A stretch of 64,000 bases of DNA from Candidatus Enterousia sp. GTDB taxonomy: Bacteria; Pseudomonadota; Alphaproteobacteria; Rs-D84. The stretch is from positions 195,136-259,135 of the forward strand of contig JAZKZR010000010.1 in NCBI GenBank assembly GCA_045612805.1, read 5' to 3'. Positions 52,937-63,980 of this stretch are shown in pieces (the first letter of the stretch is position 1; each line of letters starts with the position of its first letter). The position numbers and the translations under genes were made by a program. The notes under the pieces were generated by a model. It was given only the letters and a program-made list of their open reading frames with translations, had not been told where the DNA came from and did no database searches.

Positions 52937-54679
52937 ATGTTGTTCGGTAAAAGTTCCGGAATAAAAAATAAAAATCGTGAAAAATATGACCGCGTTCGCA
53001 AACTTATGTGGATAAAATGCGAATCCTGCGGGAAATTGGTTTATTACAAGGATTACAAAAACAATCATTATATTTGCCCGCGTTGCGGCCGCGCATTTAT
53101 TATGAACCCGAAACAGCGGTTTGATTTACTGTTTGATGACCGCACGTGGGAAAAAATCCCATTGCCAACCATGCCGGATGACCCATTGGGCTTTGTGGAC
53201 CGTATGCCATATTCCGAACGCTTGGCCGAGGCACGAAATGACACCGGTTATAACGATGCGGTCACAACGGCGGACGGAAAAATTGGCGGAATTCCAACAA
53301 CAATTTGTATCCTTAACGGCGAATTTATGATGGGTTCAATGGGGCGCGTTGCGGGCGAATGCATTGTCGCATCGGCCCAGCATGCAATTGATACACACCA
53401 ACCTTTTATTATGGTCGCGTGCAGTGGTGGCGCCCGGATGCAGGAAAACATACTTTCATTGATGCAAATGGCGCGCACGACCGTTGCGGTGAACAAATTG
53501 CACGCCGCACGGATTCCATACATTGTGCTGTTGACCGACCCAACATATGGCGGTGTGACGGCGTCCTTTGCAATGCTGGGCGATATCAATATCGCGGAAT
53601 CCGGCGCGCGAATCGGCTTTGCCGGACGGCGCGTGATTGAGCAAAATATTCGTGAAAAATTGCCGGCCAATTTCCAAACGGCGGATTACCTTTATGAACA
53701 CGGTATGGTTGATATGGTTGTCCCGCGTGCGGAATTAAAGGCGCGGCTTGAAAAAATCTTGCGTGTGTTGATGAATGTGCCGGGCGTGCCGCATGAAATT
53801 TCGGTGCAAACCCCGCCCGCCACAAACGAAACATCGAAAAAGGCACGCGGCATGGGTGAAACACCCGCCTATGACAAGGTTTTACTTGCGCGGAACGAAA
53901 ATCGCCCACATTTCTTGGACTATATAAACGGAATTGTTGACGATTGGACATACCTTGCGGGTGATAGATTGTTTGGTGAAGATGCGGCAATGTGTGGCGG
54001 GATTGGTCTGTGGAACGGCACGCCCGCGGTAATTTTAGGTCAGGAAAAAGGTCGCACCATTGAAACGCGTCAATTGCATCGTTTTGGCATGCCAAATCCA
54101 GAGGGTTATCGCAAGGCGCAAAGATTGATGCGACTTGCCGAACGATTTAATTTACCGGTAATATCGCTTTTTGATACGGCGGGTGCTTTTGCGGGATCGG
54201 CCGCCGAAGAACGTGGCCAGTCCGAGGCCGTCGCCACATCAATCCAAACGGGGCTTTCAATAAAGACACCATACATCGCCGTGAACGTGGGCGAAGGTGG
54301 TTCCGGTGGCGCAATTGCAATCGGTACCGGCGACCGTGTTTTAATGCTTGAAAACGCGATTTATTCGGTGATTGCGCCGGAATCTTGTGCAAGTATTTTG
54401 TGGAAGGATAATAAGTTCAAAGCAACGGCGGCGGAGGCAATGAAACTGACCGCGGCGGACATGATGGAAATGCGCGTGATTGATAAAATTATTCCCGAAC
54501 CCGCGGGCGGGGCGCATACCGATTGGAAGACGACGATGCAGAATTTGTCCGATATGGTTAGCGAGCAGATAAAACTGTTGCAAAAGACCGCACCGGAAAA
54601 ATTGCCGGAATTGCGTGCTGAAAAATTCCTTAAGATGACGCGCAAAATCGACGGCGAAAGCGCAAAACGGGGAAAGTAA
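52937..54679 (+). CDS. accDA: Acetyl-CoA carboxylase carboxyltransferase, fused beta-alpha (AccD-AccA) polypeptide
   Basis: AccD zinc ribbon CESCGKLVYYKDYKNNHYICPRCG is followed by the carboxyltransferase beta and alpha halves in one 580-aa frame. Confidence 0.85.
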   Translation: MLFGKSSGIKNKNREKYDRVRKLMWIKCESCGKLVYYKDYKNNHYICPRCGRAFIMNPKQRFDLLFDDRTWEKIPLPTMPDDPLGFVDRMPYSERLAEARNDTGYNDAVTTADGKIGGIPTTICILNGEFMMGSMGRVAGECIVASAQHAIDTHQPFIMVACSGGARMQENILSLMQMARTTVAVNKLHAARIPYIVLLTDPTYGGVTASFAMLGDINIAESGARIGFAGRRVIEQNIREKLPANFQTADYLYEHGMVDMVVPRAELKARLEKILRVLMNVPGVPHEISVQTPPATNETSKKARGMGETPAYDKVLLARNENRPHFLDYINGIVDDWTYLAGDRLFGEDAAMCGGIGLWNGTPAVILGQEKGRTIETRQLHRFGMPNPEGYRKAQRLMRLAERFNLPVISLFDTAGAFAGSAAEERGQSEAVATSIQTGLSIKTPYIAVNVGEGGSGGAIAIGTGDRVLMLENAIYSVIAPESCASILWKDNKFKATAAEAMKLTAADMMEMRVIDKIIPEPAGGAHTDWKTTMQNLSDMVSEQIKLLQKTAPEKLPELRAEKFLKMTRKIDGESAKRGK

Positions 54680-55345: not shown

Positions 55346-55861
55346 TCACAAATTCAATGCGTAAATTCCGTTTTCATATATGTTTAGTTCAACTTCGCGT
55401 CGGCGAATAAGGCCTGCGCTCACATGGCCGCCAGTTTTGTTCCATGCCCGCCACGCCGCGCCCAGATTAAAGTATCGCGCGCTTTTGAAATTCGGATTGT
55501 TTATATATTTTACAACCGTCGAATTTGCAAAATTCCGCGCGCCAATGTTAAAGCACAGCATTACCAACGCATCAAATTGATTTTGCCGCAGGTTAGTCGT
55601 TATTGCGTTGCATACCGCGTGTTCTGCCACCGACAAATCACCACGCAAAATTTTCGTTGCCGCATCTTCATCGATTCCGTCACGAAAATCTTCGCCTGGT
55701 TTAATCAAATGCCCATATCCAATCGTTGCGCCGGCTGGCAGTGGCGCGCCCGCCGCAATCGGTTGCCCGTTTTTATCGTCGTATATAACATGCCGGCCAT
55801 TACGCATGACGCGGCCTTCGCACTGTTTCAATGTGCGAATGCCATTATCACTTAGTTTCAT
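55346..55861 (-). CDS. Phage-type lysozyme (GH24, P22 gp19 / T4 lysozyme-like)
   Basis: MKLSDNGIRTLKQCEGRV...TIGYGH...NQFDALVMLCFNIG pattern, with the catalytic Glu in the CEGR context. Confidence 0.8.
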   Translation of the reverse strand: MKLSDNGIRTLKQCEGRVMRNGRHVIYDDKNGQPIAAGAPLPAGATIGYGHLIKPGEDFRDGIDEDAATKILRGDLSVAEHAVCNAITTNLRQNQFDALVMLCFNIGARNFANSTVVKYINNPNFKSARYFNLGAAWRAWNKTGGHVSAGLIRRREVELNIYENGIYALNL

Positions 55862-56331: not shown

Positions 56332-56435
56332 TTTTTTTATTAAACAAAAAGCCCTTGTATTAATTTTTGTTATTTAGTATATTGCCATCACAATAGGGGA
56401 AAGGGGTTAATTTACTGTATTTGCGGGTATCAGAT

Positions 56436-59400
56436 ATGAAAAAATTGTGTGCAACAATTGCTTTTACGGTTTATACATTGGCCGTGGCGTTTGCGGGCAC
56501 GGCATTTGCAGAAACAAATTGCACTGGTTGGTCATACTATGATTCCGTGTCGGAAACCTGTGTCACATGTGAAAATTCTGGTTTTACAATTACCACGTCC
56601 AGTTTGGCGGCAAATACGAACTTTTGGTTCACCATGTCCCCAAAGGGCAGTTTTGCGGTTGATTGGGGCGATGGCACCATAGATAACATTGATCGTGATA
56701 ATACAACCGTAACGGATTATTCGCATACATATACAAACGGTGGGGTGAAAACAATTAAGTTTTGTGGTCGGGCAACAGAATATAATTCCGCCGGTGGTGA
56801 CAGTGTTGTTGCGGCAATATCGTTTTATAAAAACGATTCAACTAATACATCTAAATGGATTACGTCCGTATCCGGATCAATGGGTTCAATGTTCCCAACC
56901 ATATCTGATACCCCTGCGGGCCAGCCACGTTTCCGCAGTACATTCCAAGGTGCCAGCAGCTTAACAACGATATCGGCAAACTTGTTCAGTGGTGTGTCGG
57001 GTTCGGCGGAAGGTATGTTCCGTTCAACATTTGATAAAAGCGGGTTAAAGGCGATACCATACGGATTGTTTGCCGGTATAACGGGTGGTGCCTCAAATAT
57101 GTTTCGTTCAACATTTTACCAGTGCCGGGGGTTAACATCACTGCCGGATGATTTATTCGCCGGAATTACGGTCGCCGCCCAGGATGAATTTAGGTTCACT
57201 TTTTACCAGGCAAGTAGTTTATCGGGCGAATATATCCCGGCAAGTGCGTTTATTGGGTTGGTAAATGCGGGTTCCCCACAACCGGAAACTGGCAGCATGT
57301 GGTATCAAACATTTGATGGAACCGGTTTATTAAAAGCATGTCCGTCGCGGACACACCCGTTCATTACTGGCTACGAAGGGGAAACCGCAAGTGTCACATG
57401 GAACGGGTATGTGGCTTGTCAACCAGATAATCCGTGTAAGGGGGCGGAATATTGGGATTCAACGAACGAGGTTTGCGTTCCATGTCCCGGCGACTATGTT
57501 TATGATATGAAAAATACCAAGATATCGATTAACGAATGTAAAATTCAGTGTTCTGCCGGAACATATTTGGCGAATGCGGGTGATTTGACTTGTACCAATG
57601 CGGGGGTTGGTTATTACGCGATGGGCGGTGTGTTCAGTTATGGTCAATCCAGTACACGTACCCAATGTCCGGATAATATGCCGACAATAAATAATACCAC
57701 CACCGCATCCGATGTTGAACAATGTGTTGTGCGTTGTCGTGGCATACAATATCGCAATCCAAATAATTTATGTGTTGATTGTCCACCGGGATACGATGAC
57801 GATGATACGGACGGCAAAAATGCAATTACCGACTGTAAAATTCTTTGTGATGGCGGAACATATTTGCCAACGGCGAATGCGTCATCGTGTGAAGATGTTG
57901 GTGACGGTTATTGGTCGGTGGCAACAACGGTCGCATATGGTTCAACCGTATCGCGCAACAAATGTCCAATTGGTCAAACGACTGGTATGACCAATGCATC
58001 CAGTGCATCACAGTGTAGGGAAGCATTATGTACCGGTGCAACATATCGTGATTCTGTGACGGGGGAATGTATATCGTGCCCAATTGGATACGATGCGCAT
58101 ACGGTATCCGGTAAAACATCAATAAGTGAATGCCAGATTCATTGTTATGCCGGGACATATATTGCAAATGCGAATGATACAGTATGCACCAATGTTGGTG
58201 ATGGATACTATGCGGCGGCATCCGATGTAAATTACGGTTCAACTGGTTCGCGTGGTCAATGTCCATCCGGTCAATTAACGGGAACACAAACCGCGGCCAG
58301 TTCTTCACAGTGTAAAACATCATGCCTGGGTGTGCAATATTACGATTCTGCAACGGGGGCTTGTAAAAATTGCCCAACTGGATATACTGATAACCCCGCA
58401 GACGGCAAGAATAACATTAACCAGTGCCAGGCCTATTGTGCGGGGGGGACAGTTTTTGCGACATACACGCCACTTGAATATTTACAGAGCAGAAACGGAA
58501 ACCAATTTATTGATACTGGATATGGGGTCACAAGTGACCACGTAAATGGAACCGTGGTGATAGAAAATCTTGAAGTAATAACTAATCCTTCGCAATATGA
58601 TTCGGGTAATTTCTTTGGGAATTTATATGGACAAGGTGGATTTAGTTCTGGGTGGAAAAAGAATGTTTTTGGTGTATGGCTGCAGAAAACAAATGGTGGT
58701 GGTGCAAAGGCGCAGTATTCTGCCCCATTGAATCAGAATCAAGTATATACGATAAAATATGATATTACTTTGACGCTTGGAAATAATGGTAAGAAGAGTG
58801 GTGTTCCAAAGATTACTGTTGATAATAATAGTCCAAAAACGGCGAATGTACCAGATGTGTCGATTAATTATGAAGGAAATACGATAAAATTATTTACGAA
58901 CGGCAGTGCGTTTAAAAACGGCAATTCAATTGAACTTCCAAATGGTGATAAAATATTTGGTGGACGCATGTATTCAATGCAATTGTATGACAACGGTGTG
59001 TTGAAATTAGACCTGATTCCTGCACGACGCGAATCAGACGGTGAATTGGGTATGTATAATCGTGTTGACGGTGATTTTTATGTGAATGCTGGGTTTGATA
59101 CCTTTATTGCCGGTGCTGATAGCGGCGATCCATTTGGTTCGTGTGGTCCTGTGGGTAATGGATACTATATTGGCGCAACTTATACGAATTATGGAACGGT
59201 TGGAACACGTAGTAAATGTCCAAATGGTGCGCCAACTATGGAAAATAATAAAATTATAAATAATGCCAGCAGTATTTACCAGTGTGGTGGTGTTGAACCA
59301 TGCGAAGGTGCGATGTACCCGGATCCGGGTACCGGTATATGTACACTGTGTCCAACGAATTATATTTCTAATACACAAAATGGGAAAGAATCTATCTATG

Positions 59401-60125
59401 AATGTCAAATACATTGTGAACCAGGAACATATTTGGCAAATGCCAACGATGCGTCGTGCATAAATGTTGGTAATGGCTATTATACAGACGACAGTTTGAT
59501 AAATTGGGGCGATGTTGGAACGCGTACGCGTTGTCCAAATGGTGGTGTCACGAACATGACAAATGCCGCCACCGCTGATGCATGTGTGCCCATTGGCACG
59601 TGCAGTGGCGCAACATATATGAATTCTGGCACATGTGAACCATGTCCAACCGGATACACCGCCAATACGATAAATGGTAAAACGGCGGCAACCGATTGCC
59701 AAATGGTCTGTCCGGTGGGTTCGTATTTAGCAATGGCAAACGCAACAACATGTACCGATGCGGGTGCGGGTTATTGGGCAACGGGTGGCGTGGTAAATTA
59801 TGGTTCAACCAGTATAAAGAACGCCTGTGCAACGGGACTTACCACCGTTGGATATGGACACGGTGCGGATGAAGCGTCGGATTGTGGGCGTAAATTACAC
59901 CTTGGGGACTTTATATTATACACCAAAACAACAAAACCGACATTGCCCGCAATAAATGTTCGGGTTGAAAACGATAGCACAACACATTATATCGGGGTCA
60001 GTGATACGGACCAAACATTAACCCCAATTCATGTGACCCAGGGTGAAACACAATATACCGCCTTTGACGACAGTATTTTATACAGCGAACGTGATTTGGA
60101 AACCAACACGCGTATTACACAATAA
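56436..60125 (+). CDS. Large secreted Cys-rich repeat protein: N-terminal surface-protein short repeats (DUF285-like), seven roughly 100-aa CxxCPxGY modules, and a central predicted jelly-roll module
   Basis: Signal peptide MKKLCATIAFTVYTLAVAFAGTAFA. Repeats MFRSTF...GL..IP.GLFAGIT. The module C.G..Y.D...G.C..CP.GY.....GK..I..CQI.C..GTY.ANAND..C.NVG.GYY...NYGS...R..CP.G occurs seven times. The frame is open from 56421. Confidence 0.85.
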   Translation: MKKLCATIAFTVYTLAVAFAGTAFAETNCTGWSYYDSVSETCVTCENSGFTITTSSLAANTNFWFTMSPKGSFAVDWGDGTIDNIDRDNTTVTDYSHTYTNGGVKTIKFCGRATEYNSAGGDSVVAAISFYKNDSTNTSKWITSVSGSMGSMFPTISDTPAGQPRFRSTFQGASSLTTISANLFSGVSGSAEGMFRSTFDKSGLKAIPYGLFAGITGGASNMFRSTFYQCRGLTSLPDDLFAGITVAAQDEFRFTFYQASSLSGEYIPASAFIGLVNAGSPQPETGSMWYQTFDGTGLLKACPSRTHPFITGYEGETASVTWNGYVACQPDNPCKGAEYWDSTNEVCVPCPGDYVYDMKNTKISINECKIQCSAGTYLANAGDLTCTNAGVGYYAMGGVFSYGQSSTRTQCPDNMPTINNTTTASDVEQCVVRCRGIQYRNPNNLCVDCPPGYDDDDTDGKNAITDCKILCDGGTYLPTANASSCEDVGDGYWSVATTVAYGSTVSRNKCPIGQTTGMTNASSASQCREALCTGATYRDSVTGECISCPIGYDAHTVSGKTSISECQIHCYAGTYIANANDTVCTNVGDGYYAAASDVNYGSTGSRGQCPSGQLTGTQTAASSSQCKTSCLGVQYYDSATGACKNCPTGYTDNPADGKNNINQCQAYCAGGTVFATYTPLEYLQSRNGNQFIDTGYGVTSDHVNGTVVIENLEVITNPSQYDSGNFFGNLYGQGGFSSGWKKNVFGVWLQKTNGGGAKAQYSAPLNQNQVYTIKYDITLTLGNNGKKSGVPKITVDNNSPKTANVPDVSINYEGNTIKLFTNGSAFKNGNSIELPNGDKIFGGRMYSMQLYDNGVLKLDLIPARRESDGELGMYNRVDGDFYVNAGFDTFIAGADSGDPFGSCGPVGNGYYIGATYTNYGTVGTRSKCPNGAPTMENNKIINNASSIYQCGGVEPCEGAMYPDPGTGICTLCPTNYISNTQNGKESIYECQIHCEPGTYLANANDASCINVGNGYYTDDSLINWGDVGTRTRCPNGGVTNMTNAATADACVPIGTCSGATYMNSGTCEPCPTGYTANTINGKTAATDCQMVCPVGSYLAMANATTCTDAGAGYWATGGVVNYGSTSIKNACATGLTTVGYGHGADEASDCGRKLHLGDFILYTKTTKPTLPAINVRVENDSTTHYIGVSDTDQTLTPIHVTQGETQYTAFDDSILYSERDLETNTRITQ

Positions 60126-60227
60126 ATAATAAAAGGAATCATTGCGCTGGTATCGCAATAAGCAAAATTATACTAAAATGTGCAGAAATAGTATTTGAAA
60201 ATACTAAGAACATTGAAAAATCATTTA

Positions 60228-61166
60228 TTAATCAACCCCGTATCCCATTTGACCGGTCCCAGCGGGATAATACAGTTTTTTGTCAACGGTATCCCACATA
60301 CAATTTGTTTGTGCCATGTGTCCGCAAACATTTGTGCCAGCGGGAACGGGTTCAAAATCGTGTACCAACGTCCCTGATGTATCATATAATTTAATATAAT
60401 ACAATTTCATACCACCACTGTCTGTTTGGTCAAGCGAACTATTACTAATCAAATTATTTTTAAATATTTTTATCGTATCTGATGTTGAACATGAACCAAA
60501 CGTACGTGTTATTGTGCTTTTGTATACTCCATCGATATAATATTTAATACCCTTTTTTGTGGAATTTTGGTTTTCTGTTACAAATCTTAATAATTTTTTA
60601 CTGTTTGCTTCATTAAAATTTGTGGCTGAAGCCGAATTGGTAGATCCAAATCTAAACTGGGCACGACGTTTATGATCCAATGTCAGATCAAACCAACACG
60701 ATGAACTGTTTGTACCAAATATACGCGCACTTTTACCGTTTACAATTTTCACCTGAACATCAAGATTATATGAAGGGTTTACCGCAACACCCGTATCAAA
60801 CCACTGGTTCCCATCGGACAATAAATATGCATTTGGGGTCAGTGTTGGACCGGTGCATTCCGGGTCGGTTATAACAATCGGGTCACCCGGTTCTTCGGGC
60901 ATAACCCATGTGCCGCCACCACATTCACCATCACATATTGTATAAACGGTGCCATTTGCATTAACATGTAACGAATCCGCCGCCCACGTAGTGGTTGCAG
61001 GGGCGCAATACGTATTATTGCCAACCATAACTTTTAATTTGTGATCCGTGCTACACGAATTTTGTAAAGTGATAGAATGGTTTCCAATGCGCAAAACCTG
61101 TCCCATCGCCATACATGCGTATGTCGATATACCCAGTAATAAAAATACTCTCCCGTATCGCATCAC
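60228..61166 (-). CDS. Secreted protein that shares the jelly-roll-like module with the convergent 56436-60125 gene
   Basis: Signal peptide. YLLSDGNQWFDTGV...LYDTSGTLVHDFEPV...YYPAGTG aligns with EYLQSRNGNQFIDTGYGV...LYDNGVLKLDLIP...FYVNAGFD in the neighbouring gene. Confidence 0.7.
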   Translation of the reverse strand: MMRYGRVFLLLGISTYACMAMGQVLRIGNHSITLQNSCSTDHKLKVMVGNNTYCAPATTTWAADSLHVNANGTVYTICDGECGGGTWVMPEEPGDPIVITDPECTGPTLTPNAYLLSDGNQWFDTGVAVNPSYNLDVQVKIVNGKSARIFGTNSSSCWFDLTLDHKRRAQFRFGSTNSASATNFNEANSKKLLRFVTENQNSTKKGIKYYIDGVYKSTITRTFGSCSTSDTIKIFKNNLISNSSLDQTDSGGMKLYYIKLYDTSGTLVHDFEPVPAGTNVCGHMAQTNCMWDTVDKKLYYPAGTGQMGYGVD

Positions 61167-61282
61167 GCTTAGGGTCCATTCTTATGGTATCAAAACAATT
61201 ATGATGTGACACCAACCATACTAAGTGTAAAAAAAAACTTGTCACCAAGACAAGCGTTTTATGTGAAAAACGGAAAAATAAT

Positions 61283-61576
61283 TTATTCAAACCAAATTAC
61301 CGCACGGGTATTGCTTGACGTGCTGCCCACGGGAATTGTCACTTCACTTTTGGTAACGGTCACGGTTCCATTGCTTGCGGTAACACTGCTCACTATGGGA
61401 CCCGTCCCCGATTCAACAACATTTGTTGATGTTAATTTATCTTGTTTTACCGCATCCATTGTGTTATATGCTCCTTCGACATACGACCTTGTTACCACTT
61501 TTGTATTGGGTGTAACCTCGGCAAAAACCGGTGCAGTCAAGAAAATTCCGATAAAGATGCATAAAACCTTCTTCAT
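61283..61576 (-). CDS. Small secreted Thr/Ser/Val-rich protein (first of four tandem genes)
   Basis: Signal peptide MKKVLCIFIGIFLTAPVFA. Mature N-terminus PNTKVVTRSYVEGAYN. Confidence 0.55.
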   Translation of the reverse strand: MKKVLCIFIGIFLTAPVFAEVTPNTKVVTRSYVEGAYNTMDAVKQDKLTSTNVVESGTGPIVSSVTASNGTVTVTKSEVTIPVGSTSSNTRAVIWFE

Positions 61577-61653
61577 TTCGTAAATCTACCTGAACAATTA
61601 TGTTGTATAAAAATACAATCATAATTGCCCAGATATAAATTTATTTGTTTTTA

Positions 61654-62520
61654 TTACGGTTGTGTTGGGGCTGTTAATGTCACTTCTTGGTTTGTATCCG
61701 TATTCCAAGTTGTGTACACTTTCAACACTTTCGCACTTTGGGTATCAGCAGCAGTTTTTAATTCATTGATAGCAGCTGTTACCGTTTGTGCTGTCGTTTG
61801 CAAACCAGTATTACCAACTATTCCTTCCAAAGCATCTGCGTCTGCTTGTGCAGCATTTGCAGCAGATTGTGCAGTAGCGGCATTGGTTATACCTGTTTGT
61901 GCAGCGGTCATCGCAGCATTGGCAGCGGCCGCAGCGGATGCTTTTTGTGCTTCAGTAAAATGCGTATCTGTTAACGCTGCCGCAGTACCAGCAAAACCCG
62001 CTGCAGTATTAACTTCATTGATAGCACCAACTAAAGAATTTTTTTCTGTTGTTGTTAAATTATTTAAAACACCAACGCTTGTTTCCAACGCATCAACTTC
62101 GGATTGTGCAGTGGCGGCATTGGTTATACCTGTTTGTGCAGCGGTCATCGCAGCATTGGCAGCGGCCGCAGCGGATGCTTTTTGTGCTTCAGTAAAATGC
62201 GTATCTGTTAACGCTGCCGCAGTACCAGCAAAACCCGCTGCGGTATTAACTTCATTGATAGCACCAACTAAAGAATTTTTTTCTGTAGTTGTCAATGTTG
62301 TTAAATCACCTTCGGCTGCTTTTGCACGGGCATTTTCTGCGTTTGCAACTGCAACTGCGGCATTATATGCACCACGAACAAATGATGTTGATGCAACATT
62401 AGTGTTTGGGGTTGCATCCACTGGTTCCGCCGGAACTGTACCGATTGTCGGTGTTGCGTTCGCCGCCATTGGTAAAATCGCCAAAGCCGCGATTACCGAT
62501 ATGTTTAAGATTTTTTTCAT
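61654..62520 (-). CDS. Secreted Ala/Thr-rich fibrous protein with an internal 79-aa tandem duplication
   Basis: Signal peptide MKKILNISVIAALAILPMAANA. PNTNVASTSFVRGAYN. The 63-aa block TTEKNSLVGAINEVN...ITNAATAQS occurs twice within a 79-aa unit. The antisense ORF at 61625-62719 is rejected. Confidence 0.7.
   Translation of the reverse strand: MKKILNISVIAALAILPMAANATPTIGTVPAEPVDATPNTNVASTSFVRGAYNAAVAVANAENARAKAAEGDLTTLTTTEKNSLVGAINEVNTAAGFAGTAAALTDTHFTEAQKASAAAAANAAMTAAQTGITNAATAQSEVDALETSVGVLNNLTTTEKNSLVGAINEVNTAAGFAGTAAALTDTHFTEAQKASAAAAANAAMTAAQTGITNAATAQSAANAAQADADALEGIVGNTGLQTTAQTVTAAINELKTAADTQSAKVLKVYTTWNTDTNQEVTLTAPTQP
61865..62307. repeat. Near-perfect tandem duplication (237-bp period, about 200 bp per copy, 2 mismatches) inside gene 61654-62520
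   Basis: gattgtgcagt(a/g)gcggcattggttatacctgtttgtgcagcggtcatcgcagcattggcagcggccgcagcggatgc... occurs at 61865 and at 62102. Confidence 0.8.
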
Positions 62521-62618
62521 TCTCTTTCTCCTTGTTTGTTTTTGGTTTACCTGTGCGCATTATATCATAATAAAAAATTTTTTTGAACAATATAATGCAC
62601 TGTTTTTAATTTTTTTTT

Positions 62619-63194
62619 TTAGTTACCACTCAACACGTTATTTTCAAATGCTTCTGCACTCCATGTGGATTCTACCTCCATCGCCTGCCATGTTCCAGCA
62701 CCGTAGGCATCGGTTTTGAAAACATATGTTGTGTTCGCAGATGTGGTCACATCCAACCCGATTGTCGATGGGTTATCGCCGGTTCCTGGTGTGACCTTGA
62801 CACCGGTTCCCGCGGTGTAACCATTGGAATTTTCCAAATCGGTCACCCGTTTTACCAAACCACTGGTTGAATCACCGACTGTCGATTGCAAACTTTGAAC
62901 GGCACCCTTCAAACCGGTCCCCGGCGTGTTGCCTTCACCCACGGTTCCAATATCACCGACCAATCCGGTCGCCGGATCGTTACCACTTGCGGGTGCACCA
63001 ACAATGTTTTGCAAACTTTTTACCGCACCATCCGATATTCCACTTGCAACCTTGTACACGTATTTCAACCCGTCATCCACGTATCCCTTGGTTGTTAATG
63101 CCGCAGAACTGGCATCCGGAACCGGGTCCGCGTATGCGCCGATTGAAATCATCGATACTGATGCAATCAAACCATACAAAAAGTTTCTTTTCAT
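62619..63194 (-). CDS. Secreted Gly/Thr-rich protein in the same four-gene cluster
   Basis: Signal peptide MKRNFLYGLIASVSMISIGAYA. Mature N-terminus contains ALTTKGYVDDGLKYVYK. Confidence 0.6.
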   Translation of the reverse strand: MKRNFLYGLIASVSMISIGAYADPVPDASSAALTTKGYVDDGLKYVYKVASGISDGAVKSLQNIVGAPASGNDPATGLVGDIGTVGEGNTPGTGLKGAVQSLQSTVGDSTSGLVKRVTDLENSNGYTAGTGVKVTPGTGDNPSTIGLDVTTSANTTYVFKTDAYGAGTWQAMEVESTWSAEAFENNVLSGN

Positions 63195-63245
63195 TTCTAT
63201 CGTTCCTCCTTTTTTTTGTTAGTTTTTTTGTTTGTCTCTCTCGCC

Positions 63246-63980
63246 CTATGGTTGACCTTGGGTGCCACCGGTTTGACCATCATGCAAAAAACTGGGGTCA
63301 AATACCTTTACAACCTTTGCATTGGCCAAGTCGCCTACAATCTGGTCAACGTATTGTTTGGTATAATAATTATTTTGCAGATATGTTTTTGTTTGGTCAA
63401 TCGTATAATACTTTGTGACATCAACAAAGTCGGTTAAGTTGCCTATTTGTTGTTCCATTTCGGCAACCTTGTCCGGCAAAATCGCGATTTCTTCGGTCAC
63501 GCCGATTATGTTGCCGGTAATATCAATCCCATCGCCCGGTTCCAATGTTTCCTGTTTTGTTGTCATTTGGTCTTCCAACGCTGCAACCCGATTCGTTAAA
63601 TCGGACACATCTGTATTCGCACCACCGGACGGTGTTGTGTTATTTGACGGAATTTTTGAACTTATGCTTTTTACAATATTGCCATGAAGCCCCGACAACC
63701 GCATAGAATTCGCAGAACCCAATGTTGTTGACGTGGTAGTGCCCGAAACATTTGCACCACTGGTCGCCACGTTCTTCGGGCTAAGGTATGACCCCGATGT
63801 CCGTATGGATGATGCCCGCGTCGTGGTTGTTTTCGGGGGAACAACATTGTTGATTTGTGTGCCACCTGTATTTGTTGCGCCCAACCTTTTTACCGTCGGC
63901 GCCCCCACCGCCGGATACGTCAAAACACCCGTCGATACCAACGAAAACGCCAAAAACAATACGTTTCGATATAACATCAT
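63246..63980 (-). CDS. Secreted coiled-coil protein in the same four-gene cluster
   Basis: Signal peptide MMLYRNVLFLAFSLVSTGVLTYPAVGA. Ser/Thr-rich linker, predicted coiled coil ...RVAALEDQMTTKQETLE..., C-terminal TKQYVDQIVGDL. Confidence 0.6.
   Translation of the reverse strand: MMLYRNVLFLAFSLVSTGVLTYPAVGAPTVKRLGATNTGGTQINNVVPPKTTTTRASSIRTSGSYLSPKNVATSGANVSGTTTSTTLGSANSMRLSGLHGNIVKSISSKIPSNNTTPSGGANTDVSDLTNRVAALEDQMTTKQETLEPGDGIDITGNIIGVTEEIAILPDKVAEMEQQIGNLTDFVDVTKYYTIDQTKTYLQNNYYTKQYVDQIVGDLANAKVVKVFDPSFLHDGQTGGTQGQP

What the first reader, a model, noticed from the sequence alone, without database searches (positions are those of the whole stretch)
58474..60860. Roughly 210-aa module shared between two convergent genes (58474-59112 in the + gene, 60231-60860 in the - gene)
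EYLQSRNGNQFIDTGYGV ... RMYSMQLYDNGVLKLDLIP ... DFYVNAGFDTFIAG in the large protein aligns with YLLSDGNQWFDTGVAV ... KLYYIKLYDTSGTLVHDFEPV ... LYYPAGTGQMGYG in the 312-aa protein encoded tail-to-tail 100 bp away. Divergent paralogous jelly-roll/lectin-like domains in adjacent secreted proteins suggest a binding module that is being shuffled between carriers. One speculative reading is that the small protein is a decoy, partner or alternative C-terminus.
Basis: seen in the sequence. Interest (0 to 1): 0.55.

Follow-up and report, generated by a model that had tools for sequence, protein, structure and literature searches.

The report
Shared lectin-like module in surface proteins
Two neighbouring secreted proteins of an uncultured gut/rumen alphaproteobacterium really do share a roughly 200-residue lectin-like domain, which belongs to a very large uncatalogued family also common in gut phage tail genes. 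The two proteins are distant relatives built from a common domain toolkit, not a recently duplicated pair.

Summary
Big protein aa 679-905 and small protein aa 107-312 align at 26% identity (BLASTP E 3e-5; Smith-Waterman z about 10, 0 of 4000 shuffles).

- **Fold:** both AlphaFold models hit the same LamG/ConA-like jelly rolls (agrin LG3, PTX3 pentraxin).
- **Family:** an exhaustive profile search finds 28,407 cluster representatives, usually as 3-12 tandem copies. No Pfam, NCBIfam or PHROGs model matches. The module is frequent in tail-gene clusters of uncultivated phages.
- **Not sister copies:** about 570 copies from unrelated proteins score better against the big module than the neighbour does.
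- **Nested insertion:** in the big protein the module sits inside the fourth of six 98-aa, 8-cysteine repeats.
- **Second shared domain (new):** the big protein's C-terminal domain (about 64 aa aligned) is homologous to the small protein's N-terminal domain (hhalign 95.6%, E 1e-8).
- **Strain variability:** two contigs whose big-gene region is 95-96.5% identical to the window lack the small gene at this site, and one relative is a recombinant mosaic.

Best reading: a clade-specific modular set of surface proteins, probably adhesins, in genome-reduced Rs-D84/Enterousia-like bacteria. Binding is inferred, not shown. The "alternative C-terminus" idea is rejected, and the "partner/decoy" idea is weakened. 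Moderately interesting.

The parts
56421..60125 (+). Big gene, 1234 aa from the TTG start. The real start is probably the ATG at 56436 (M6), where the orthologue begins. Order of parts: Sec signal peptide (MKKLCATIAFTVYTLAVAFAGTAFA|E), N-terminal region, six Cys-rich repeats, C-terminal domain.
   Evidence: ORF list. 64% identical 1223-aa orthologue in L002, aligned from M6. No Pfam, PHROGs, NCBIfam or PDB sequence match.
57432..59888 (+). Six repeats of about 98 aa with 8 cysteines each (C.G..Y.....C..CP.GY......GK..I..C...C..G.Y......C...G.GY.....V.YG......CP...........C), aa 338-1156. Repeat 4 (aa 634-959) is interrupted by the module.
   Evidence: Repeat alignment. The module replaces the loop 'YLANANDxx' between 'CAGGT' and 'SCGPVGNGYY'.
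58455..59135 (+). LamG/ConA-like module, copy 1 (big aa 679-905). It has no cysteine and is nested in Cys-rich repeat 4.
   Evidence: HMM E 2e-62. AlphaFold pLDDT 72, pTM 0.76. Foldseek top hits are agrin LG3 1pz7_A, PTX3 and laminin LG4-5.
59886..60077 (+). C-terminal 'LHxG' beta domain of the big protein (aa about 1156-1219), preceded by the conserved GYGHGADE.SDCG motif. Homologous to the N-terminal domain of the small protein.
   Evidence: hhalign of a 36-sequence profile against the small N-terminal profile: probability 95.6%, E 1.2e-8, 61 columns. Thirty column-shuffled controls scored at most 18, against 46.7 observed. The domain ends 42 related proteins.
60127..61266 (.). Strain-variable segment: the small gene plus its two spacers. 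In L099, L101 and L113 it is replaced by short unrelated non-coding DNA (about 270, 190 and under 40 nt).
   Evidence: blastn of window 54-64 kb against the loci. Junction alignment. No flanking repeats.
60139..60161 (-). Hairpin followed by a T-rich tail in the convergent spacer. Possible terminator of the small gene.
   Evidence: Consensus scan only. The number of such sites in the region is no higher than in shuffles, so this is weak.
60228..61166 (-). Small gene, 312 aa: signal peptide, LHxG domain, Pro-rich linker, module.
   Evidence: ORF list. 77 orthologues of about 300 aa at 41-99% identity. 15 species-level MAGs of gut/rumen Alphaproteobacteria, including Candidatus Enterousia. AlphaFold pLDDT 85.
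60231..60848 (-). LamG/ConA-like module, copy 2 (small aa 107-312). It has family-specific conserved cysteines and an extra loop (GTNVCGHMAQTNCMWD).
   Evidence: HMM E 3e-53. pLDDT above 90 over most of the domain. Foldseek hits: neurexin LNS2 E 9e-5, agrin LG3, PTX3, V. cholerae sialidase lectin wing. Invariant columns.
60921..61103 (-). N-terminal 'LHxG' beta domain of the small protein (aa about 22-82). It is predicted as six short strands directly after the signal peptide.
   Evidence: AlphaFold strands E23-77, pLDDT 72-83. Profile-profile match to the big C-terminal domain.

Best explanation
The two genes are separate members of a clade-specific, modular family of secreted cell-surface proteins. 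The host is a genome-reduced gut/rumen alphaproteobacterium resembling Rs-D84 / Candidatus Enterousia.

**Building blocks**
1. A roughly 200-aa beta-jelly-roll module of the ConA/LamG type. It belongs to a very large sequence family with no curated model, and the same family is widespread in tail-gene clusters of uncultivated phages.
2. 98-aa, 8-cysteine repeats that form a stalk.
3. A roughly 65-aa 'LHxG' beta domain (about 61-64 residues aligned between the two proteins).

**How the two proteins use them**
- The big protein displays one module on a loop of its fourth stalk repeat and ends with the LHxG domain.
- The small protein is the minimal version: signal peptide, LHxG domain, linker, module.

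**Proposed mechanism (inferred).** The jelly-roll module binds a ligand, most likely a glycan on a partner cell, host surface or the cell's own envelope. The LHxG domain is a common attachment or assembly domain that works at either end of a protein.

**Why they are neighbours.** The adjacency comes from a flexible surface-protein island in which genes and gene segments are gained, lost and exchanged by recombination. It is not the result of a recent duplication.

**Shown versus inferred.** Shown: homology of both domains, fold class, nesting, distribution, strain variability. Inferred: surface location, binding function, anchoring role.
For: **Homology of the module:**

**Fold.** The two independent AlphaFold models share LamG/pentraxin-type top hits in PDB: agrin LG3 1pz7_A and PTX3 9k6n_A. 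The best BFVD hits are uncharacterized gut-phage proteins, followed by ConA-like/LamG-annotated phage proteins.

**Size of the family.** 28,407 representatives at E<=1e-3 and 19,638 at E<=1e-10. The 150 best carry a median of 5 copies at a 200-aa period.

**No curated model:**

**Phage context.** 88 module-bearing ORFs lie in 76 of 77 IMG/VR loci. They sit downstream of tape-measure, tail, fibre or spike genes.

**Copies are not sisters.** The small module ranks 571 of 753 against the big module. The nearest non-family relative of the small module is 30% identical.

**Nesting.** Shown by the repeat alignment. P0143 has four Cys-rich repeats, each with a module nested at the same point, 33-34% identical to the big protein.

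**Second shared domain:**

**Combinatorial architectures.** 42 metagenome loci encode proteins ending in the same C-terminal domain. Those read in full are about 400-1350 aa, and they carry 0, 1 or 2 modules and 0-6 CxxCP motifs.

**Flexible locus.**
- The small gene is present at this site in L100, L104 and L002.
- It is absent in L099 and L101 (95-96.5% nt identity over the big gene) and in L113.
- L100 is a mosaic: 93% nt identity over window 59595-61486, but only 45-60% aa identity over most of the remaining big protein.

**Host lifestyle.** Rs-D84/Enterousia genomes are under 1 Mb and are proposed to depend on partner cells (PMC12306168).
Against: - No binding, localisation or expression data exist.
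- Signal peptides were judged by eye.
- The big-module model is only moderate (pLDDT 72, with four loops below 50), and its Foldseek E-values are weak (1e-2).
- The fold class also contains enzymes (GH16, alginate and ulvan lyases appear).
- The role of the LHxG domain is a guess. No fold search was run on it alone.
- The window's taxon is inferred from orthologues of the small protein, not from marker genes.
- The small gene does sit beside a big-family gene in the window, L002, L100, L104 and (divergently) L001, so some functional link cannot be excluded.
Confidence: 0.6

Rival explanations
1. The pair is a functional unit. The small protein is a partner, competitor or decoy of the big protein. 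For example, it could co-assemble through the shared LHxG domain, or bind the same ligand in soluble form.
For: - The tail-to-tail arrangement is kept in L002 at about 64% aa identity for both proteins, and in L100 and L104.
- In L001 the small gene lies next to a 515-aa big-family member.
- Two domains are shared, not one.
- In L100 the small gene appears to have been exchanged together with the 3' end of the big gene.
Against: - Near-identical strains L099 and L101 keep the big gene with no small gene at the site.
- 12 of 15 GTDB species loci, and L003, have the small gene with no big-family gene within 8 kb.
- The modules are only 26% identical, with different conserved cysteines and loops, so a shared ligand is not expected.
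- The genes are convergent, so they are not co-transcribed.
Confidence: 0.15
2. The module is a catalytic jelly roll, a glycoside hydrolase or polysaccharide lyase, rather than a binding domain. The proteins would then degrade surface glycans.
For: Foldseek lists GH16 beta-glucanases (1cpm, 1mac, 3axd) and alginate/ulvan lyases among the matches. Phage tail proteins often carry depolymerases.
Against: - Neither copy has the GH16 E-x-D-x(x)-E motif, and only 8 of 863 family copies do.
- The columns conserved across the family are structural: Y, DTG, G, YD, P.
- The best structural matches are non-catalytic LG, LNS, pentraxin and CBM40 domains.
- Tandem arrays of 5-12 copies are typical of binding repeats, not of enzymes.
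Confidence: 0.1
3. The region is a prophage or phage-tail-derived remnant, and the two genes are tail-fibre genes rather than cellular surface proteins.
For: - The module family is common in phage tail clusters.
- A phage-type lysozyme lies just upstream at 55346-55861.
- The 288-aa neighbour weakly matches a tail-fibre PHROG (E 6e-9).
- L001 has an integrase 2.3 kb from the small gene.
Against: - Both proteins and their neighbours carry N-terminal signal peptides, which virion proteins normally lack.
- No capsid, portal, terminase, tape-measure or baseplate match was found in the neighbours tested.
- Housekeeping genes flank the island (a fused 580-aa acetyl-CoA carboxylase carboxyltransferase-type ORF at 52937-54679 and, in L002, PBP, MraY and FtsW).
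- The small protein, P0235 and P0124 find nothing in 50,697 phage genomes, and the small family finds nothing in IMG/VR.
Confidence: 0.07
4. The similarity is chance or compositional.
For: Identity is low (26%), with 19% gaps.
Against: z about 10 against shuffles. Both copies match an independent family profile at E 1e-53 or better. Both models share the same fold hits.
Confidence: 0.01

Closest known systems
Laminin-G / LNS / pentraxin domains (ConA-like lectin/glucanase superfamily), e.g. agrin LG3 (1pz7), neurexin-1alpha LNS2 (2h0b), PTX3 pentraxin domain (9k6n)
   Same: Same fold class by Foldseek for both models: probability 1.00 for the top hit of each model, target-normalised TM-score about 0.5-0.59. 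About 200 residues. The N- and C-terminal strands lie next to each other, which allows nested insertion. Used as an extracellular binding module.
   Different: No sequence-level relationship: no Pfam Laminin_G or pentraxin hit and no PDB sequence hit. The Ca2+ and ligand site was not assessed. Tandem arrays of up to 12 copies and nesting inside Cys-rich repeats are not features of LG domains.
Lectin or carbohydrate-binding wings of bacterial sialidases (V. cholerae 1kit; S. pneumoniae NanA CBM40, 4c1w)
   Same: Bacterial extracellular jelly-roll modules that bind glycans. They appear in both hit lists.
   Different: Here the module is not attached to any recognisable catalytic domain. Identity is only 11-13%.
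ConA-like/LamG domains of phage tail fibres and receptor-binding proteins (BFVD entries annotated 'Concanavalin A-like lectin/glucanases superfamily' or 'LamG domain containing protein')
   Same: Same fold. True sequence relatives of the window's module sit in phage tail-tip gene clusters.
   Different: The window's proteins have signal peptides and lie in a bacterial chromosome with no virion genes. The sequence family has no PHROGs model and was not found in cultured-phage genomes.
Cysteine-rich repeat stalks of the ephrin-receptor-like / TNFR / GCC2_GCC3 kind (lead only, from the BFVD annotation 'receptor protein-tyrosine kinase' and from memory)
   Same: Regular CxxC-containing repeats with 8 cysteines in secreted proteins. 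One BFVD structural neighbour carries this automatic name.
   Different: No Pfam match at all to the big protein, even at E<=1. Membership was not established.

Membership tests
ConA-like / LamG jelly-roll superfamily (fold level) | Two-sheet antiparallel beta-sandwich of about 180-220 residues that matches solved LG, LNS, pentraxin or legume-lectin structures | tested here: met
   Small model (pLDDT above 90 over most of the domain): 2h0b E 9e-5, 1pz7, 9k6n, 1kit, probability 1.00. Big module model (pLDDT 72): 1pz7_A E 1.3e-2 with probability 1.00, 9k6n_A, 2jd4.
Pfam Laminin_G_1/2/3, Pentaxin and other ConA-clan sequence families | Score above the gathering threshold of a curated HMM | tested here: not met
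   Zero Pfam hits at E<=1 for both window proteins. None at E<=0.01 for typical multi-copy members. NCBIfam gave none.
LamG/LNS domains | Ca2+ or ligand site at the rim of the sandwich | not testable with these tools
   Model coordinates could not be inspected. Three well-conserved Asp positions (IDTG; L..D..P; YD.V, the last nearly invariant) are candidates only.
Uncatalogued 'YLxSxGxQ(Y/F)IDTG ... KIYDxGxLVRDxxP ... GxYDxVxxxFYxNxGxGxF' module family (defined here) | Full-length match to the family profile | tested here: met
   Big E 2e-62 and small E 3e-53, HMM positions about 1-201 of 201. The profile recovers 28,407 representatives. Caveat: both window copies were among the sequences used to build the HMM. 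Independent support comes from P0078-P0081 at E about 1e-9 and the 824 copies.
GH16 glycoside hydrolases | Catalytic E-[ILV]-D-[IVAF]-[VILMF]?-E motif | tested here: not met
   Absent from both copies. Present in 8 of 863 family copies.
Phage tail fibre / receptor-binding proteins | Encoded in a virion structural module, with no signal peptide | tested here: not met
   The neighbours tested have no capsid, tape-measure or baseplate matches. Both proteins start with signal-peptide-like sequences. No tblastn hit in cultured phages.
Clade-specific C-terminal 'GYGHGADE..CGR.LH.GD' surface-protein family (defined here) | Conserved domain of about 95 aa at the extreme C-terminus | tested here: met
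   The big protein plus 42 metagenome loci. The small protein carries the core of this domain at its N-terminus instead.

The most novel reading that the evidence does not exclude
The roughly 200-aa module defines one of the larger protein-domain families still lacking a curated model. It would be a general host- or partner-recognition module of uncultivated gut and rumen phages. Genome-reduced, partner-dependent Rs-D84/Enterousia alphaproteobacteria would have adopted it, together with a previously undescribed LHxG anchoring domain and a Cys-rich stalk, as an exchangeable attachment toolkit. Strain-level gain, loss and mosaic recombination of these genes (as at window 59595-61486) would then tune which partner cell or host surface each strain attaches to.
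Probability: 0.3. Interest if true: 0.6.

Novelty: new variant of a known kind. Interest (0 to 1): 0.4.

Why it matters
- Jelly-roll binding modules on bacterial surface proteins and phage fibres are well known, so the principle is not new.
- What is new is the scale. This sequence family has at least 28,000 clusters at 50% identity, often as long tandem arrays, and Pfam, NCBIfam and PHROGs do not detect it. A curated model would annotate thousands of "hypothetical" phage tail and bacterial surface proteins in gut and rumen metagenomes.
- For Rs-D84/Enterousia, a lineage with genomes under 1 Mb and a proposed symbiotic or parasitic lifestyle, these genes are concrete candidates for the attachment machinery.
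- The strain-level cassette behaviour gives a handle for studying how that machinery diversifies.

Tried and rejected
**Searches that found nothing**
- Pfam, PHROGs and NCBIfam on both window proteins and on typical family members.
- PDB sequence searches with the module profile, the big protein and the small-family profile. The only result was a spurious Cas9 match at E 0.13.
- tblastn of the small protein, P0235 and P0124 against cultured phages, and of P0124 against plasmids.
- IMG/VR scans with P0235 alone and with the small family. A motif-centred alignment (A5) then found 77 loci.
- Literature search for the motif 'QYIDTG' found nothing, and a LamG / tail-fibre search found nothing specific.
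- Names for ten family members through cluster look-up.

**Ideas tested and rejected**
- Flanking direct or inverted repeats, or target-site duplications, around the variable small-gene segment: only short chance-level repeats were found.
- A relationship between the big protein and the 6788-aa giant ORF: a single weak hit.
- The GH16 catalytic motif is absent.
- An early single-HMM test of the second shared domain was inconclusive (i-E 0.65). It became significant only after 42 relatives were collected.

Full report
**1. The observation**

The window encodes a 1234-aa protein at 56421..60125 (+) and a 312-aa protein at 60228..61166 (-). They lie tail to tail with 102 nt between the stop codons.

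BLASTP of the two proteins gives a single significant alignment: big aa 681-891 against small aa 108-303, 26% identity over 225 columns, E 3e-5. The Smith-Waterman score of the two segments is 98. Shuffling either partner 2000 times gives 36 +/- 6 with a maximum of 73, so z is about 10.

An HMM built from the two segments and seven relatives finds these two copies and nothing else in the six-frame translation of the 64-kb window.

The only correction concerns the + strand coordinates, which are 2 nt out of frame. The quoted strings span nt 58476-59114 and 60827-60237.

**2. What the module is**

*Curated libraries do not recognise it.* Pfam, PHROGs and NCBIfam match neither protein. The PDB holds no sequence relative.

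*The fold is LamG/ConA-like.*
- The AlphaFold model of the small protein, from a 61-sequence alignment, is good: mean pLDDT 85, and above 90 over most of the module. Its Foldseek matches in the PDB are neurexin LNS2 (E 9e-5), agrin LG3, the PTX3 pentraxin domain, the lectin wing of V. cholerae sialidase and GH16 glucanases.
- The independent model of the big module is weaker (pLDDT 72, pTM 0.76). Its two best matches, agrin LG3 (1pz7_A) and PTX3 (9k6n_A), are also among the small model's top five, followed by laminin LG4-5 and the NanA CBM40.
Sequence membership of the curated LamG families was tested and not met.

*The family is very large.* An exhaustive profile search of 1.84 billion cluster representatives returns 28,407 proteins at E<=1e-3, 19,638 at E<=1e-10 and 3,253 at E<=1e-30. 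The 150 best are made almost entirely of the module: 3-11 copies, median 5, period 200 aa, median coverage 91%. Typical members also lack any Pfam, NCBIfam or PHROGs match. The family is uncatalogued in those libraries.

*The family is common in uncultivated phages.*
- No relative was found in cultured phage genomes (small protein, P0235, P0124) or in plasmids (P0124).
- A motif-centred scan of IMG/VR found 77 viral contigs carrying 88 module-bearing ORFs. These have 1-6 copies per ORF at any position, and several contigs have two or three such genes side by side.
- In the 12 loci examined, the nearest large upstream genes include tape-measure proteins (L035, L029, L045), tail, fibre or spike proteins (L050, L052, L059) and a recurrent tail-associated PHROG. 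In phages the module therefore sits in the tail-tip or receptor-binding cluster.
- The best structural neighbours in BFVD are uncharacterized proteins of uncultured gut phages (E 2e-9 to 5e-8), followed by proteins annotated ConA-like or LamG.

**3. Anatomy of the two window proteins**

*The big protein.* It starts with a Sec-type signal peptide (MKKLCATIAFTVYTLAVAFAGTAFA|E). The orthologue alignment starts at M6, so the ATG at 56436 is the likelier start. An N-terminal region of about 300 aa follows, containing repeated FRSTF...L..IP..LF.G motifs.

Next come six repeats of about 98 aa with eight cysteines each (aa 338-1156). The module contains no cysteine and is nested inside repeat 4. It replaces the loop 'YLANANDxx' between 'CAGGT' and 'SCGPVGNGYY'.

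This composite unit is not unique. P0143 (1278 aa) consists of four Cys-rich repeats, each with a module nested at the same point, and is 33-34% identical to the big protein across both parts.

*The small protein.* It has a signal peptide, a beta domain of about 60 aa with conserved cysteines, a Pro-rich linker and then the module. The module carries family-specific conserved cysteines and an extra loop.

**4. A second shared domain**

BLASTP hinted at a weak match between the big protein's C-terminus and the small protein's N-terminus (E 3.0). A single HMM was inconclusive (i-E 0.65).

I then collected 42 relatives of the C-terminal domain from metagenomes. Profile-profile comparison now gives probability 95.6%, E 1.2e-8 and score 46.7 over 61 columns. 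Thirty column-shuffled controls scored at most 18.

The aligned segments are big aa about 1156-1219 (GRKLHLGD...YTAFDDSI) and small aa about 22-82 (GQVLRIGN...YTICDGEC). The two neighbours thus share two domains, in opposite order.

**5. Are the two copies a local pair?**

*Not sister copies.* Ranked by BLASTP against 824 module copies, the big module is closest to its own orthologues. After these come about 570 copies from unrelated multi-copy proteins at 28-32% identity. The neighbour's module ranks 571 of 753. Apart from its own orthologues, the small module's best relatives are also unrelated proteins, at 30% identity.

*Adjacency across species.*
- In L002 (= L007) both genes have orthologues at about 64% identity in the same convergent arrangement, with the module at the same place.
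- In L001 (small protein 87% identical) the neighbour is a divergently oriented 515-aa big-family member with no module.
- In L003 and in 12 of the 15 GTDB species loci, no big-family gene lies within 8 kb.

*Adjacency across strains.* This is the more telling comparison.
- L099 and L101 match the window at 95-96.5% nt identity across the big gene, and the match resumes in the 97-aa gene. Window 60127-61266, which holds the small gene and its spacers, is replaced by unrelated non-coding DNA of about 270 nt (L099) and 190 nt (L101).
- The more distant L113 has under 40 nt there.
- L100 and L104 have the small gene in place.
- L100 is a mosaic. It is 93% nt identical to the window over 59595-61486, which covers the 3' end of the big gene, the small gene and the start of the 97-aa gene. 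Most of the rest of its big protein is only 45-60% identical, including 45% for the module.
- No flanking repeats mark the variable segment.

This pattern fits gain and loss by homologous recombination, using the conserved C-terminal-domain coding sequence and the 97-aa gene as arms.

*Clade-wide shuffling.* The 42 loci with the C-terminal domain encode proteins with 0, 1 or 2 modules and 0-6 CxxCP motifs; those read in full are about 400-1350 aa. At clade level, the idea of a module shuffled between carriers is well supported.

**6. Host**

Orthologues of the small protein occur only in uncultured gut and rumen Alphaproteobacteria MAGs, one of them named Candidatus Enterousia sp..

Published analysis describes Enterousia and the order Rs-D84 as bacteria with genomes under 1 Mb that lack most biosynthetic pathways. 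They are proposed to live as obligate symbionts or parasites, with many hypothetical membrane proteins possibly involved in cell-cell interaction (PMC12306168).

The window's own assignment to this group is inferred from these orthologues.

**7. Most likely mechanism**

*Shown:* two homologous domains, the fold class, the nested architecture, the distribution and the strain variability.

*Inferred:*
- Both proteins are exported.
- The Cys-rich repeats form a disulfide-stabilised stalk that presents the jelly-roll module.
- The module binds a ligand, most probably a glycan. This rests on analogy with LG, LNS, pentraxin and CBM40 domains and on the phage receptor-binding context.
- The LHxG domain is a common attachment or assembly domain that works at either terminus.

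The small protein's module is the best-conserved part of that protein (71.5% between the window and L002). The big protein's module is its least conserved part (55%). This suggests a conserved ligand for the small protein and a more variable one for the big protein.

**8. Rivals**

- *Functional partnership.* This remains possible because of the recurrent adjacency, the two shared domains and the joint exchange seen in L100. It is weakened by the strains and species where the genes are uncoupled.
- *Catalytic role.* This is unlikely. The GH16 motif is absent, and the columns conserved across the family are structural.
- *Prophage origin of the island.* This is suggested by a phage-type lysozyme at 55346-55861 and a weak tail-fibre match of the 288-aa neighbour. 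Against it, there are no virion genes and all these proteins have signal peptides.
- *Chance.* Excluded.

**9. Verdict**

The kind of system is known: modular surface and phage proteins with jelly-roll binding modules. What is new is the size of this uncatalogued family, its nesting in Cys-rich repeats, the additional LHxG domain and the cassette-like strain variability. I rate it a new variant of a known kind, with interest 0.4.

Noticed in passing
window 19703-40069 (+): A single 6788-aa ORF with an N-terminal signal peptide, 339 cysteines and two Flg_new (Listeria-Bacteroides repeat) matches. That is about 20 kb of coding sequence in a lineage whose genomes are reported to be under 1 Mb. 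It shares only one weak segment with the 1234-aa protein.
   Followed up: partly
window 61283-63980 (-): Four co-directional small genes (244, 191, 288 and 97 aa) lie upstream of the small gene. All begin with signal peptides and most carry a '(T/S)xx(Y/F)V(D/E/R)' motif soon after the signal peptide. P0081 and P0239 join the same kind of N-terminus to the LamG-like module. The 288-aa protein contains an exact internal duplication of about 64 aa (TTTEKNSLVGAINEVNTAAG...TAQS) and weakly matches a tail-fibre PHROG (E 6e-9).
   Followed up: partly
L099 3652-3924 and L101 4144-4332: In strains that lack the small gene, its place is taken by a conserved non-coding element of 190-270 nt with G+C-rich hairpins (e.g. 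GGGCCCCGGCCTTCGCCGGGG). Its nature is unknown; it could be a terminator, a small RNA or a repeat element.
   Followed up: no
L100 1-3961 compared with window 57.6-61.5 kb: Mosaic big gene. The 3' end and the adjacent small gene are 93% nt identical to the window, while the upstream repeats and the module are only 45-60% aa identical. This indicates recombination inside the gene between diverged lineages.
   Followed up: partly
L015 6984-8945: Two tandem paralogues of the small gene (316 and 334 codons between stops) lie head to tail in one MAG.
   Followed up: no
window 55346-55861 (-): A phage-type lysozyme (PF00959, E 3e-27; endolysin PHROGs) lies between housekeeping genes and the big gene, with no other phage genes nearby.
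   Followed up: partly
window 52937-54679 (+): A 580-aa ORF that looks like a fusion of the beta and alpha carboxyltransferase subunits of acetyl-CoA carboxylase (AccD-AccA). This was judged from the translation only and not tested.
   Followed up: no
L001 12939-14472: In the closest relative that has a different gene context (small protein 87% identical), an HTH_17 gene and a phage-type integrase lie 2-3 kb downstream of the small gene. This hints that the gene can sit in a mobile island.
   Followed up: no
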